This document shows positions 6,038 to 53,550 of a stretch of DNA of 64,000 nucleotides, piece after piece; position 1 is the first letter of the stretch, and every line of letters starts with the position of its first letter. This DNA is from Eledone cirrhosa (lineage: Eukaryota), in the NCBI GenBank assembly GCA_964016885.1, contig OZ024749.1, forward strand, positions 16,058,001 to 16,122,000, given 5' to 3'. The notes under the pieces are model-generated. The model was not told the DNA's origin, did not search any database, and saw only the letters and a list, made by a program, of their open reading frames with translations. A program made the translations under genes and the position numbers.

Positions 6038-6775
6038 ATGAGAGACGTAAAATAAGAAAATTATAAAATTAACTTACTTACTAAAATATCACTTCCAACT
6101 AATTAGTTTCTGGAATGGAATAAATATATTTTCCGAAGAAAACATAGAGAATCATTCCGTCGTCACCCACAAAGTTACTAAGACAAAACCTATATATTTG
6201 CTAGCATTGATATGCATCTGTATGTATATATATGTTACTAGATATTAATTCTTTATAATTATCTCCAAATTATTTGTTGAGCAATATTGGCCATGACTGC
6301 TGCTATGGTAGCAGGCAGGCCGCTGTCTTATTAGCAAACCACTTTCCACTGATTGACCTCGATGTCACGTGATTGATTCTTTTTGAATTTGCCACCGACG
6401 CAGAGGCAGTGATTTTCTCCATGGCTAGGAATTCAGTCCACGCTTTGCTATTTTCTATCCACTGAATTATTTTTTATAAGTTTCCAGAGTCCACGCTTTG
6501 CCTGGATATTTGATGAGAATAGTCTTCCCTGACGACGGAATGATTCTCCATGTTTTCTTCGGAAAATATATTTATTCCATTCCAGAAACTAATTAGTTGG
6601 AAGTGATATTTTAGTAAGTAAGTTAATTTTATAATTTTCTTATTTTACGTCTCTCATATTATTGTTCTGCAACCCCATGCATTGAACCACAAAGTTACTA
6701 AGACAAAATCTATATATTTGCTAGCATTGATATGCATCTGTATGTATATATATGTTACTAGATATTAATTCTTTA
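6038..6775 (+). mobile_element. Non-coding retrozyme-like unit (520 nt period, ~1.17 copies) preceded by an inverted fragment
   Basis: ccacaaagttactaagac occurs at 6167 and again at 6687. 6038-6165 is the reverse complement of an internal segment. Flanks are (TA)n. Confidence 0.8.
6524..6603 (+). ncRNA. Type I hammerhead ribozyme, palindromic helix III
   Basis: cttcc CTGACGA cggaatg...cattcca GAAA ctaattag TT ggaag. Confidence 0.85.
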
Positions 6776-6899
6776 TATATATATATATATATATATATAT
6801 ATATATATAAACACTGGAGGTAATATCCGTAGTGGGAGAGCACTCAGTCCATGGGACGAGTTAGGTAGAAGTGGTTACACAACAGTTAGTTCACCATAC

Positions 6900-6937
6900 C
6901 GAGAACAATTGTTTCACCTTAGCGGGTCCTCAGCTCG
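6900..6937 (-). ncRNA. Minimal type I hammerhead ribozyme
   Basis: Minus strand: cgag CTGAGGA cccgctaaggt GAAA caattg TT ctcg. Confidence 0.8.
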
Positions 6938-7338
6938 TAATGGACATGGTTATACGGAACAGGAAGGATAACGGTAGGGTTGTCCTTCCTGTTCCGTATA
7001 TATATATATATATATATATATATATATATATATATATATATACCTGTAGTATCTATTTCATACTATTAACCTTATTTGAAAATAAATCTGACCAAGAATG
7101 CCTTTTGTGAAAATCAGTCATGTGGAACTATTGTCATCTTGCCTGACGGTTTGAACCTTACAGAACCACCTGCCTCTTTGAGGTCAAATACCAATCTACT
7201 ACCATCTACAAACTGACCAATGAGAATCAAGACTATTCCTGCTGACAACATCAAAGTATTCCTAACAAGCTCATATGTCCCAAGGCTCTGTACCATCAAC
7301 ACTATACACACAGAGCTGGCATATCTAAGGACTGACTA

Positions 7339-7394
7339 ACTGCCTGATGAGGTCATAGCCATTCAATGGCTATCATCGAAATATATATAGCAGT
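7339..7394 (+). ncRNA. Type I hammerhead ribozyme
   Basis: actgc CTGATGA ggtcatagccattcaatggctatcatc GAAA tatata TA gcagt. Confidence 0.85.
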
Positions 7395-7506
7395 AAATAA
7401 AGGATTATAAGTTCATGCAATTGACTTATGTTTCGTCACTATATATATATATATATATATATATATATATATATATATATATATATATATATATATATAT
7501 ATATAT

Positions 7507-8362
7507 ATTATAAAGAATTAATATCTAGTAACATATCAATGCTAGCAAATATATAGGTTTAGTCTTAGTAACTTTGTGGTTCAATGCATGGGGTTGCAGA
7601 ACAATAATATGAGAGACGTAAAATAAGAAAATTATAAAATTAACTTACTTACTAAAATATCACTTCCAACTAATTAGTTTCTGTAATGGAATAAATGGTG
7701 GCAAATTCAAAAAGAATCAATCACGTGACATCGAGGTTAATCAGTGGAAAGTGGTTTGCTAATAAGACAGCGGAAGAGAGTTGGAAGTGATATTTTAGTA
7801 AGTAAGTTAATTTTATAATTTTCTTATTTTACGTCTCTCATATTATTGTTCTGCAACCCCATGCATTGAACCACAAAGTTACTAAGACAAAACCTATATA
7901 TTTGCTAGCGTTGATATGCATCTGTATGTATATATATGTTACTAGATATTAATTCTTTATAATTATCTCCAAATTATTTGTCGAGCAATATTGGCCATGA
8001 CTGCTGCTATGGTAGCAGGCAGGCCGCTGTCTTATTAGCAAACCACTTTCCACTGATTAACCTCGATGTCACGTGATTGATTCTTTTTGAATTTGCCATC
8101 GACGCAGAGGCAGTGATTTTCTCAATGGCTAGGAATTCAGTTCACGCTTTGCTATTTTCTATCCACTGAATTATTTTTTAATAAGTTTCCAGAGTCCACG
8201 CTTTGCCTGGATACTTAGATGTGAATAGTCTTCCCTGACGACGGAATGATTCTCCATGTTTTCTTCGGAAAATATATTTATTCCATTCCAGAAACTAATT
8301 AGTTGGAAGTGATATTTTAGTAAGTAAGTTAATTTTATAATTTTCTTATTTTACGTCTCTCA
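7507..8362 (+). mobile_element. Second copy of the 520-nt retrozyme-like unit in a different permutation, with an inverted, internally deleted 5' part
   Basis: ttggaagtgatattttag occurs at 7781 and 8303. 7507-7772 is the reverse complement of unit pieces. Flanks are (TA)n. Confidence 0.8.
8230..8309 (+). ncRNA. Type I hammerhead ribozyme (same as 6524)
   Basis: cttcc CTGACGA...GAAA ctaattag TT ggaag. Confidence 0.85.
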
Positions 8363-8930
8363 TATATATATATATATATATATATATATATATATATATA
8401 TATATATATATATATATATATATATATATATATATATATATATATATTTGGATTTTAAAGTTTAAACTTATCTACGGAACAGGTTTGATTTTGAAATTTA
8501 AATGTGTCTAAACATCATAGCCTTTTGGCAATGCAGTTCGTCTTTGTTGATTTATTATTTTAAATCGATATGGACAAACTGTAGTATAATAATTAGTATC
8601 TTTCATTCTGGCTAAATTTTCTTTTGCAATATATATACAGATGTGATGGTATCTGTGTTTCATCATATATATTAGTTTATACACGGCTCAGGGGTATTTT
8701 CCTCCTTCGAGCTAATTCCATTGTAAAAGAATTCCTTACACTTAATAATATATATATATATATATATATATATATAATTGAATAAACAAGAGATTCGAAC
8801 ACATGTATGTTTATATTAGTGTTCATCTCTCTTGTTTATTCAATTATATTGTACGGTTCGGAAAACCTTTTTTCTTAGAGCTATTTAATTGTAAGAGACT
8901 ACTCTGAGTTCTTAACTATATATATATATA

Positions 8931-51063: not shown

Positions 51064-51134
51064 TGTTTTATCTGATGAAAACACAAATATTATTGTTTGA
51101 TGATGTTTGTTTTTGAAATGCGCATAATAAAATA
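51064..51134 (+). ncRNA. Type I hammerhead ribozyme in a solo copy (51005-51262) of the 20591 family
   Basis: tgttttat CTGATGA aaac...gttttt GAAA tgcgca TA ataaaata. Confidence 0.82.
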
Positions 51135-51570
51135 TATGGAACTCCTTTAACCATCTTTTGATCTTATATTATGCATACTCCAGTCCCACAAACTGTAGAG
51201 TGCTTCTTATCCGATATCTGCATTGCTTTATTGTACTACAATAAAACTCACCTCCTACATTATATATATATATATATATATATATATATATATATATATA
51301 TATATATATATATATATATATATATATTTATATATATATATTTATATATATATATTTATATATATATATAAATATATTTATATATATATAAATATATATA
51401 TATATAAATATAAATATATATATATATAAATATATATATATATATATATATATATAAATATATATATATATATATATATAAATATATATATATATATATA
51501 TATATATATATATATATATATATATATATATATATATATATACACATATATATATATATTTATATATATA

Positions 51571-51775
51571 TAGGGAAAAAGAAAAGGAGGAGAGAACAAG
51601 CACTGACCTGAAAGAAAATGATATACCCTCCGCCACAGGCAGGGAGGGCAGGCCGGGCAACCAACAAGCAAAGGGCAAAGGTGAAAAGCGAAATCACCTT
51701 CCGAAGGAGAACCAAGCGCAGAGGGACCGGTGGACAACTGTTCAAAGGAAGAACAGAAAGCACCAAGACACTGGG
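51571..51775 (+). mobile_element. Inverted second copy of the LINE ORF1 5' segment fused to the PLE fragment
   Basis: Reverse complement of 50568-50772 with about 4 substitutions. Confidence 0.9.
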
Positions 51776-52410
51776 CACGTATCAGGAACAAATGCACCGA
51801 CGCTAGAGACCGAGACACACACACCACACATTTCCTGGAAGTACTCAAACTGAACGGATACACGACATCCACCACAAACCGTGCCAGAAAGAACAGAGGA
51901 CACTACACCCGAGGCACTAACACCTGCTTCCTGAAGCTCCCACACTTCAGTGAAGAAACAACAACAGCCATCCGCAGAGCCATCAGACGAGAGGGACTGG
52001 ATATCCAACTGGCCCACTCGGGTCCTTCTCTGCGCGGACGGCTGGCCAAGAGACACTCCACCAGACATGACAACTGCTGCAGACTAGTCAACTGCCCCAT
52101 CAACGACACAGACCTATGTCACCAGGCTTACGTCGTATACAGACTAGAGTGTGACAAATGCAACAACTTCTACGTAGGTAGCACCACCAGACCACTCCAC
52201 ATAAGAATAAAAGAACACCTCAATAATAACGCTTCCTCATTTAAGAAACACCTAGTTAAATGCAAAAACACCGACAAAACCATAACAGTTAGGATAGAAA
52301 CTAAGGAAAGAAACCTCGGCAATCTTAGAATTAAGGAAGCACTAATTATAGATAAAACACAACCACCAATCAATAATAGACTAGAACTCAACACCCAATT
52401 TATAACCTGA
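51776..52410 (+). pseudogene. PLE RT-thumb/linker and GIY-YIG endonuclease
   Basis: LKLNGY...FLKLPH...CCRLVNCPI...C...VVYRLECDKCNNFYVGSTTRPLHIRIKEH...IKEALII...PPINNRLE. Confidence 0.92.
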
Positions 52411-52948
52411 TAGGGCCTCTAGCCCCATATTTACACCCCCCCCACACACACGCACGCGCACACACACACACACGCTGACACCTCCACTTATTCTCTCTCA
52501 CACATACACACACAAAACCAGTTCTAACACCAGATAACACCTACCCCCACATTTACGCATAGACCTATCTTCTCACACTCACACACACACACCCACATAC
52601 CTACACCTTCATGCATTCTCCCACACACTTATACAGGCATGTATATAAAATAAAAACAAAAAAAACCCCTAAACAAACCCCTTTTAAAGGGAGACTACTC
52701 TTTATCCACCTAATTTTAATTCTTTGATATTAGAGATAGAGCAGATACTCTATACTATTTCCTGTCAGCATGGCTTGGCTAGATATTTAGAGCGCTGGTT
52801 TGAGACCTTTATTTCCCTCCGAAGAAGAGATATTATCTCGAAAATTAATGACATTTAAATAAATTCAAGGTAAAGGACGAATTGTCAACAATATCTTTTA
52901 CAATTGCATTCTTTTTTCTATGTCCATACCTGCATTGTTTTGGCTTTA
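51776..52948 (+). mobile_element. 5'-truncated Penelope-like element of a second clade (Naiad/Poseidon-like) with 3' UTR and variant hammerhead
   Basis: The ORF runs to 52410, followed by a CA-rich UTR and a hammerhead-like motif at ~52815-52870. The element ends at (TA)n. The clade assignment is from motif recollection only. Confidence 0.85.
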
Positions 52949-53142
52949 TTACACATATTCAAACGTTTATATATATATATATATATATATATATATATAT
53001 ATATATATATATATATATATATATATATTTATATATATATATATATTTATATATATATATATATATATATACATTTATATATATATATATATATATATAT
53101 ATATATATATATAGAGAGAGAGAGAGAGAGAGAGAGAGAGAG

Positions 53143-53550
53143 AGAATTCACAAGAATCAAAGCTATGTTCAAAGCATTTATTCACTTACAATTGTTTCAT
53201 CCAAACCTACGCTTGGTGTCTTCGGCGCATTTTTCAATATTTGTACACATAAGTAACCTCCTTTCCAACGCAAGAGACCTACAGATACATATGTATATAT
53301 TGAGGTACATATATACATATACATATACATATGTATCTGTATGTCTCTTGCGTTGGAAAGGAGGTCAATTATGTGTACAAACATTGAAAAAGGCTCCGAA
53401 GACTAGAAGCCTAGGTTAGGATGAAACAATTGTAAGTGAATAAATGCTTTGAACATAGCTTTGATTCTTGTGAATTCTATATAACTGCTCTGTAGAACAT
53501 TGATCTATTTATCTTACTGGTAATAAGGTAGTAATAAATTACTGACCTTT
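53143..53550. mobile_element. Hairpin-type insertion with CCGAAGA-core hammerheads at 53184-53228 (-) and 53393-53437 (+)
   Basis: Arms centred at ~53310, with the tail on the right. Motif: gct CCGAAGA...GAAA caattg TA agt. Confidence 0.75.

What the first reader, a model, noticed from the sequence alone, without database searches (positions are those of the whole stretch)
6524..53437. Loop-less palindromic helix III in most ribozymes, with many different palindromes
Helix III reads ACTAATTAGT (6524, 8230), ACAATTGT (6900, 10143, 38681, 53393), ATATATAT (7339, 19377, 20451, 44931), ATGCGCAT (20906, 51064), ATGCAT (36197, 56066), ACCGGT (9045, 46941) and ACGT (9691). The sequence varies but self-complementarity is kept. 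Established: minimal HHRs with palindromic helix III cleave as double-hammerhead dimers. Inference: cleavage needs two same-family copies (a tandem transcript or in trans), and the palindrome may act as a family-specific pairing code. Unrelated families sharing ACAATTGT could cross-activate.
Basis: partly seen in the sequence, partly recalled or inferred. Interest (0 to 1): 0.78.

Follow-up and report, generated by a model that had tools for sequence, protein, structure and literature searches.

The report
Penelope retroelement dimer-type hammerhead ribozymes
The self-complementary stems are real and belong to the already described small RNA-cutting motifs of Penelope-like jumping genes, which likely cut in pairs within one transcript; the palindrome alone is not a family code, because unrelated families share it and their other stem is predicted not to cross-pair.

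Summary
Observation mostly right, interpretation half right, phenomenon published. All 17 palindromes are present in hammerhead-like context, but only 8 motifs are intact. Six of 17 scan hits in the window are not self-complementary. Two families sit at the ends of intact Penelope-like elements that carry two same-strand ribozymes 3.1-3.9 kb apart. One of these has Hydra-clade motifs. Selection for pairing between two copies is well supported: one lineage shifts among ATAT, ATGT, ACGT and GCGC centres, and 96 of the first 100 listed copies stay self-complementary. The palindrome is not family-specific. A double hammerhead also needs helix I to pair across copies, and the four ACAATTGT motifs give only 0-2 cross pairs, so cross-activation is unlikely. 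A 20,314-copy family has a purine-purine centre. What remains: sister subfamilies with the same helix I differ only in the palindrome, and the genome holds about 340,000 such motifs. Cleavage was not tested. This scan reached the same verdict before on other DNA of this genome (e1-8664523).

The parts
6524..6603 (+). Type I hammerhead, helix III ACTAATTAGT, helix I 5 bp, 49-nt helix II; predicted cut after 6598
8230..8309 (+). Same-family copy 1706 nt downstream on the same strand; predicted cut after 8304
6040..6777 (.). Insertion of the ~520-nt non-coding (retrozyme-like) unit with an inverted 5' arm, between (TA)n runs
   Evidence: self-BLAST; tandem periods 522 and 528 nt elsewhere in the genome
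7507..8365 (.). Second insertion of the same unit (one unit plus partial, with an inverted arm), between (TA)n runs
6900..6937 (-). Minimal hammerhead, ACAATTGT, helix I 4 bp, weak helix II
7339..7394 (+). Hammerhead, ATATATAT, helix I of the CTGC/GCAG type
9045..9080 (-). Degenerate hammerhead remnant, ACCGGT, core damaged
9692..9723 (+). Minimal hammerhead, ACGT, helix I only 2 bp
10143..10230 (+). Hammerhead with U4C core, ACAATTGT, 61-nt helix II
19377..19437 (+). Hammerhead, ATATATAT, helix I TTTAT/ATAAA type
20451..20513 (+). Same lineage, helix I broken next to the core; inverted partner with core at 20383 (-)
20906..20976 (+). Hammerhead, ATGCGCAT, helix I interrupted; intact inverted partner with core at 20779 (-)
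36197..36236 (-). Hammerhead, ATGCAT, helix I 4 bp
38681..38790 (+). Hammerhead, ACAATTGT, 79-nt helix II, helix I 2 bp
44931..44996 (+). Hammerhead, ATATATAT, in the 3' repeat of a Hydra-type Penelope-like element; inverted partner at 41218-41283 (-)
42841..43512 (+). C-terminal GIY-YIG part of a 5'-truncated Hydra-type PLE ORF; full-length copies have 747-785-aa frames
46940..46977 (+). Degenerate hammerhead remnant, ACCGGT, core TTGAAAA
51064..51134 (+). Hammerhead, ATGCGCAT, helix I 8 bp
51775..52410 (+). C-terminal GIY-YIG fragment of a second PLE family (full copies: 905-aa RT + GIY-YIG frame)
52816..52850 (+).
53393..53437 (+). Hammerhead with U4C core, ACAATTGT; inverted partner with core at 53225 (-)
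56066..56107 (+). Degenerate hammerhead, ATGCAT, two core changes
35900..35944 (-). Counter-example: hammerhead with helix III AGGACT (purine-purine centre); family of 20,314 pattern matches
5905..5955 (+). Counter-example: helix III of 4 bp + 8-nt loop; inverted twin at 708-758 (-)
11958..12044 (+). Counter-example: helix III of 4 bp + 3-nt loop; inverted twin at 11780-11866 (-)
11397..11449 (+). Hammerhead with G.U self-complementary helix III ATATGTAT

Best explanation
These are minimal type I hammerhead motifs, most of them worn copies, left by Penelope-like retroelements and short non-coding repeats that likely depend on them, and their self-complementary helix III is likely kept because two copies in one tandem transcript would pair into a double hammerhead and cut out one unit of RNA. 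Shown: the motifs, their place in the terminal repeats of two intact PLE families, two same-strand copies around each full ORF or in 310-530-nt tandem units, inverted 5' arms, (TA)n surroundings, and compensatory change in helix III. Inferred: cleavage, the dimer geometry, and selection acting on the few full-length or tandem master copies rather than on the solo fragments. Partner choice is predicted to depend on helix I and helix III together and mainly on proximity in cis, so a shared palindrome would not be enough for cross-cleavage.
For: Motifs far above chance: 137 against 0-2; 48,708 against 187 for one pattern genome-wide. HHR-ORF-HHR layout in 6 of 8 fetched loci of the 905-aa RT+GIY-YIG family and 3 of 6 of the 747-aa family. 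The non-palindromic AG(A/G)ACT family also lies 214-219 nt behind GIY-YIG remnants in 2 loci. Central pair Watson-Crick in 13 of 14 even-length clusters against 0.27 expected, P 4e-7, clusters not fully independent. Within one lineage (67,103 matches) the first 100 listed have centres GCGC 37, ATAT 29, ATGT 27, ACGT 2, GTGC 1 and four others (hand count). ACGT has 611 matches with its own helix II types and forms a 100/99 clade nested among ATAT copies on a tree built with helix III masked. Predicted monomer hairpins are +1.5 to +6.0 kcal/mol for the even 6-10-mers, against duplexes of -4.2 to -12.5 for the self-complementary ones. Published: a single min-HHR showed no cleavage, dimer and trimer constructs low cleavage (PMC4209133).
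Against: No cleavage or RNA data here. A family of 20,314 matches has centres AA 77, GA 17, AG 5, GG 1 in the first 100 listed, none Watson-Crick (hand count); its AGAACT duplex is predicted at +0.4 kcal/mol. 4 of 18 clusters have odd-length helix III and one has an 8-nt loop, and these could fold as monomers. Invertebrate retrozyme hammerheads with 2 bp + tetraloop cleave as single copies (PMC7229834). In the one reconstituted PLE the ribozyme cut only with protein added and cutting was not needed for insertion in vitro (PMC11167929). An autonomous PLE or EN remnant was linked to only 3 of 18 clusters; the others are assigned by architecture.
Confidence: 0.8

Rival explanations
1. The palindrome is a family-specific pairing code that works in trans, and unrelated families with the same palindrome cross-activate.
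For: Many different palindromes (14 distinct even-length variants of up to 10 nt among multi-copy lineages, 9 of them exact palindromes). ATATATAT and ATGCGCAT subfamilies share helix I (8-10 cross pairs) and their mixed helix III is predicted unstable, +1.6 against -7.3 and -14.6. Only 37 of 173 clustered copies had a same-strand, same-helix-III partner in the same 10-kb stretch, so most copies could pair only in trans. Clusters 6 and 14 share ACAATTGT and have 6/3 cross pairs in helix I.
Against: ACTAGT, ACAATTGT and ATATATAT recur in separate lineages. Cross helix I is 0-2 bp for all 6 pairs of the four window ACAATTGT motifs, 2/2 for the two ACTAGT families, and 0-1 in at least one direction for the two ATATATAT helix I types (0/4 for 7339 x 44931). 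Clusters 6 and 14 share helix I and the U4C core and are probably kin. One lineage holds four different centres. Master elements have both copies in cis.
Confidence: 0.1
2. The 8-10-nt palindromes work mainly as monomers (2-3 bp plus tetraloop, helped by the element's protein or loop-loop contacts), and dimers are optional.
For: Coral and mussel retrozyme hammerheads cleave as single copies at about 0.8 and 0.1 per min (PMC7229834). The Anolis PLE hammerhead is protein-assisted (PMC11167929). Looped and odd-length families exist in this genome.
Against: A monomer gives no reason for the loop to stay self-complementary through ATAT, ATGT, ACGT and GCGC. The 4- and 6-nt palindromes cannot close a normal hairpin.
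Confidence: 0.2
3. The palindromes are a by-product: short AT-rich sequence, closeness to (TA)n microsatellites, or the way the motifs were picked.
For: ATATATAT equals the surrounding microsatellite. Any zero-loop stem is a palindrome by definition. 9 of 17 quoted motifs are damaged or variant.
Against: The scan did not require helix III pairing and the controls gave 0 palindromic hits. GC-rich centres (GCGC, ACGT, CG) are also kept. In multi-copy clusters the nearest (TA)6 lies 24-183 nt beyond the cut site for the ATATATAT cluster, not inside helix III.
Confidence: 0.02

Closest known systems
Minimal and small-palindromic-helix-III hammerheads in pLTRs of metazoan Penelope-like elements (Cervera & de la Pena 2014, PMC4209133, parts 1-2 of 4 read; Lunse, Weinberg & Breaker 2017, not held, known only through passages of the review PMC6765202)
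   Same: Type I topology, 4-5-bp or longer helix I, long variable helix II, palindromic 15.2-16.2 region, many sequence families per genome, mostly solo copies, pairs on opposite strands, tandem copies about 3 kb apart around an RT ORF.
   Different: Much higher number here (about 340,000 estimated, against 2,000-9,000 per genome there, with different descriptors). One large family has a purine-purine centre. The cross-pairing analysis of helix I was not seen in the parts read.
Hydra clade of C-terminal EN+ PLEs (Craig et al. 2021, PMC8557442, passages and section 11 read)
   Same: The 747-aa ORF behind the ATATATAT hammerhead at 44931 has DKT, CxCX5C, CxxC and CxH motifs, an RWR in place of RWK, a C-terminal GIY-YIG-like region, hammerheads, inverted 5' copies and (TA)n surroundings.
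   Different: Unit about 3.9 kb, against 'generally under 3 kb'; no tree against reference Hydra proteins was built; Pfam gave no hit.
Metazoan non-LTR retrozymes (Cervera & de la Pena 2020, PMC7229834, passages and parts 2-3 of 6 read; Li et al. 2026 preprint 10.64898/2026.07.22.740005, part 1 of 5 read)
   Same: Non-coding tandem units with one type I hammerhead each: periods 310, about 422, 467 and 522-528 nt in the genome sample; the 6524/8230 family is of this kind.
   Different: The 520-nt unit is longer than the 150-450 bp described and has a 49-nt helix II; circular RNA not tested.
Double-hammerhead of newt satellite 2 and viroid RNAs (Forster et al. 1988; seen only as cited in PMC4209133 and PMC6765202)
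   Same: Unstable helix III rescued by pairing of two copies.
   Different: Here spread over many retroelement families with different palindromes.

Membership tests
Type I hammerhead ribozyme | Core CUGANGA ... GAAA ... UH | tested here: met
   Exact in 12 of 17 quoted sites, U4C in 2, damaged in 3
Type I hammerhead ribozyme | Helix I and helix II can form around the core | tested here: met
   Helix I of 4 bp or more in 8 intact sites; helix II predicted at -0.9 to -12 kcal/mol in those; worn copies fail
Type I hammerhead ribozyme | Match to an Rfam hammerhead model | tested here: not met
   0 matches at gathering score; none among the 150 of 495 weak matches shown. Long helix II and absent loop III are the likely reason (inference)
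Type I hammerhead ribozyme | Mg2+-dependent self-cleavage after H17 | not testable with these tools
   Needs in vitro transcription
PLE min-HHR / short helix III HHR | Helix III too short for a monomer and self-complementary | tested here: met
   17 of 21 multi-copy lineages exact (12), G.U (3) or one central mismatch (2); 4 not
PLE min-HHR / short helix III HHR | Located in the terminal repeats of an RT + GIY-YIG ORF | tested here: met
   AATT family; ATATATAT family; AG(A/G)ACT family near EN remnants. Not shown for the other clusters
PLE min-HHR / short helix III HHR | Cleaves as a dimer, poorly as a monomer | not testable with these tools
   Only indirect support from covariation
Penelope-like element (insertion structure) | Partial tandems, 5' truncation, inverted 5' copy, microsatellite bias | tested here: met
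   divergent pairs 26 against convergent 7; compared with PMC8557442
Hydra clade PLE | DKT, RWK, CxCX5C linker, CxxC and CxH around the conserved E and N, (TA)n insertion | tested here: met
   Read from the translation against section 11; RWR instead of RWK
Hydra clade PLE | Groups with Hydra RTs in a phylogeny | not tested
   No reference set fetched; Atlas neighbours at 0.96-0.98 carry HTH_animal and GIY-YIG in part of their members
Non-LTR retrozyme | Non-coding tandem units with one HHR each | tested here: met
   periods 310, 420-426, 467, 522-528 nt
Non-LTR retrozyme | Expressed as linear and circular RNA | not testable with these tools
   No RNA run available to lay
Family-specific palindrome code (proposed) | One palindrome per family, not shared | tested here: not met
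   Shared across lineages, and four centres within one lineage
Family-specific palindrome code (proposed) | Shared palindrome suffices for a mixed double hammerhead | tested here: not met
   Cross helix I 0-2 bp for all 6 ACAATTGT pairs; prediction only

The most novel reading that the evidence does not exclude
In a genome with some 340,000 hammerheads, helix I and helix III together form a two-part key for partner choice, and sister retroelement subfamilies that share helix I have been selected to change the palindrome (ATAT, ATGT, ACGT, GCGC centres) so that the transcripts of tens of thousands of dead relatives cannot pair with them or cut them in trans.
Probability: 0.12. Interest if true: 0.6.

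Novelty: new member of a known kind. Interest (0 to 1): 0.27.

Why it matters
As it stands, this is a known feature of Penelope-like elements. The genome adds a clean natural test set: tens of thousands of copies show a compensatory path in the supposed loop, which is strong sequence evidence for pairing between copies, and a large family that does without a Watson-Crick centre marks the limit of the rule. The estimated density, about one motif per 9 kb, exceeds the largest count I read (126,247 canonical motifs in the axolotl, PMC7229834), although the search rules differ. If ribozyme pairing in trans did separate sister subfamilies, it would be a new form of competition among retroelements at the RNA level; nothing here shows that.

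Tried and rejected
Rfam at gathering score: nothing; at E up to 10 the 150 rows shown were mostly microRNA models on simple repeats, taken as chance. Pfam on 26 window frames: RT, APE and GIY-YIG only; Pfam on the 747-aa ORFs: nothing; BLASTP between the two PLE ORFs was weak, E 0.001-0.002, so they are distant families. Sequencing runs: no RNA holder listed, so no reads were laid. Lunse et al. 2017 was not held under DOI or PMC id; it may already discuss palindrome variety or mixed dimers. Paper searches listed nothing on mixed-family double hammerheads, judged from listings only. Supplementary alignments of the cited papers were not opened and may hold similar covariation. The audit script picked a wrong core register for 46941; corrected by eye. 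One requested stretch did not exist. The tree has long branches and unsettled bootstrap, and its rows were enriched for ATAT and ACGT by the earlier pattern searches; only the starred ACGT and GCGC groupings are used. Rejected: chance or microsatellite by-product; palindrome as a one-to-one family label.

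
Full report
Observation. All 17 palindromes quoted are in the window near the stated positions. A site-by-site audit gives 8 intact motifs, 4 with an intact core but only 1-2 bp of helix I, 2 with a U4C core and 3 with a damaged core. Rfam finds nothing at gathering score. A scan that asks for core, helix I and helix II but not for helix III pairing finds 17 motifs in the window and none in the reversed window; 10 are exact palindromes, 1 is self-complementary through G.U and 6 are neither.

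Scale. The window lies in a 3.0-Gb genome. In 120 evenly spaced 10-kb stretches a strict scan found 137 motifs, against 2, 1, 2 and 0 in one reversed and three shuffled controls; 81 are exact palindromes and 92 pair fully with G.U allowed. This extrapolates to about 342,000 motifs (bootstrap 237,000-472,000; 52 of 120 stretches have at least one; two tandem arrays add weight). As a check, the pattern has 48,708 matches genome-wide (control 187), which predicts 19.5 in the sample; 24 were found.

What carries them. The window holds two PLE remnants. A GIY-YIG fragment at 51775-52410 is followed by a minimal hammerhead with helix III AATT; 28 of 30 related loci matched the hammerhead pattern there. 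Full copies encode a 905-aa RT + GIY-YIG frame, and 6 of 8 fetched loci show two same-strand hammerheads about 3.1 kb apart around it, with an inverted extra copy and (TA)n flanks. Its longer copies have 623-785-aa frames, 3 of 6 with two same-strand hammerheads 3.8-3.9 kb apart. The protein shows DKT, CxCX5C, CxxC and CxH motifs as described for the Hydra clade (PMC8557442 section 11); Pfam is silent. The AG(A/G)ACT family lies about 215 nt behind GIY-YIG remnants in two loci. Other families form non-coding tandem units of 310, about 422, 467 and 522-528 nt, like non-LTR retrozymes; the 6524/8230 pair belongs to the last. Neighbouring copies are more often divergent (26) than convergent (7), as expected from inverted 5' copies of PLEs. 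For most of the 18 clusters an autonomous partner was not identified.

Is self-complementarity selected? Yes, by three lines. The central pair, which would be loop in a monomer, is Watson-Crick in 13 of 14 even-length clusters (expected 0.27 each; clusters not fully independent). One lineage with fixed helix I has 67,103 matches; among the first 100 listed the centres are GCGC 37, ATAT 29, ATGT 27, ACGT 2, GTGC 1, ACGC 2, ATGC 1, AGGT 1, so 96 remain self-complementary with G.U allowed (hand count). ACGT has 611 matches, and 7 of the 9 ACGT rows form a 100/99 clade nested among ATAT copies on a tree made with helix III masked (72 rows). Predicted energies favour duplexes over hairpins. Against a strict rule: a family with 20,314 matches has AA, GA, AG or GG in the centre in all of the first 100 listed (hand count), and 4 of 18 clusters have odd-length helix III.

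Is it a family code? No, not by itself. In the double hammerhead (geometry as described for Fig. 1A of PMC4209133 and derived from strand order; the figure itself was not seen) each strand runs through helix III from one core to the other, so helix I pairs the 5' arm of one copy with the 3' arm of the other. The same palindrome occurs in separate lineages: ACTAGT twice, ACAATTGT in three clusters, ATATATAT with two helix I types. Their helix I arms mostly do not cross-pair: 0-2 bp for all 6 pairs of the window's four ACAATTGT motifs, 2/2 for the ACTAGT families, 0/1 or 0/4 for 7339 against the other ATATATAT motifs. One exception, clusters 6 and 14 (6/3 bp), shares helix I and a U4C core and is probably one lineage. 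The reverse case is the interesting remainder: ATATATAT and ATGCGCAT subfamilies share helix I (8-10 cross pairs), and their mixed helix III is predicted unstable (+1.6 against -7.3 and -14.6 kcal/mol). There the palindrome alone would separate them, but drift through G.U intermediates explains the switch equally well.

Mechanism. Shown: anatomy, location, covariation. Inferred: a transcript through a tandem or full-length element brings two copies together, they form a double hammerhead and release one unit; selection acts on such masters, and the many solo fragments (only 37 of 173 clustered copies had a same-strand partner within their 10-kb stretch) are mostly inert. Caveats from the literature: invertebrate hammerheads with 2 bp plus tetraloop cleave as single copies (PMC7229834), and the Anolis PLE ribozyme needs protein and is dispensable for insertion in vitro (PMC11167929 passages).

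Comparison. Cervera and de la Pena 2014 (PMC4209133) describe these motifs, many families per genome, the palindromic 15.2-16.2 region, and cleavage of dimers but not of a monomer. The review PMC6765202 (passages) repeats this and cites Lunse et al., which I could not read. Searches listed no paper on mixed-family double hammerheads. Earlier notes of this scan reached the same reading in this genome and another; they are not independent evidence. Verdict: real, known kind, low to moderate interest.

Noticed in passing
window 47175-50395 (-): LINE-type element with apurinic endonuclease and RT frames (450 and 630 aa), unrelated to the hammerheads.
   Followed up: no
window 35900-35944 (-); genome-wide: Hammerhead family with helix III AG-RR-CT: the centre is purine-purine in all of the first 100 of 20,314 matches, which suggests tandem non-canonical pairs in the dimer.
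   Followed up: partly
window 10147, 52819, 53396, 53225; clusters 6, 14, 16: A U4C core (CCGANGA) recurs in several multi-copy families, so it may be a tolerated variant and not decay.
   Followed up: no
window 708-758 (-) and 5905-5955 (+); L103:7762: Looped helix III whose 8-nt loop holds a central CTAG; an inverted pair encloses about 4 kb of AT/AC microsatellite; a 53-nt tandem spacing occurs in L103.
   Followed up: no
genome-wide: Estimated 237,000-472,000 strict type I hammerhead motifs, about one per 9 kb.
   Followed up: partly
L181-L188, L222-L227: Two young PLE families with intact frames; 25,380 and 71,790 first-look candidates, best 150 at about 93-100% protein identity.
   Followed up: partly
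window 43512-44931: The Hydra-type element has a 1.4-kb AT-rich 3' region between ORF and hammerhead.
   Followed up: no
window 6040-8365: Two insertions of the 520-nt unit are mirror images: the end point used by the inverted arm of one is the end point of the direct arm of the other.
   Followed up: partly
window 60100-64000: Long degenerate C/A-rich (CAC/ACC-type) simple repeat with extreme strand skew.
   Followed up: no
clusters 9, 10, 15, 17 (e.g. L130:9361, L034:8056, window 11963): A group of families with odd-length helix III of the form ACC-n-GGT, either one central mismatch in a dimer or a 3-nt loop in a monomer.
   Followed up: no
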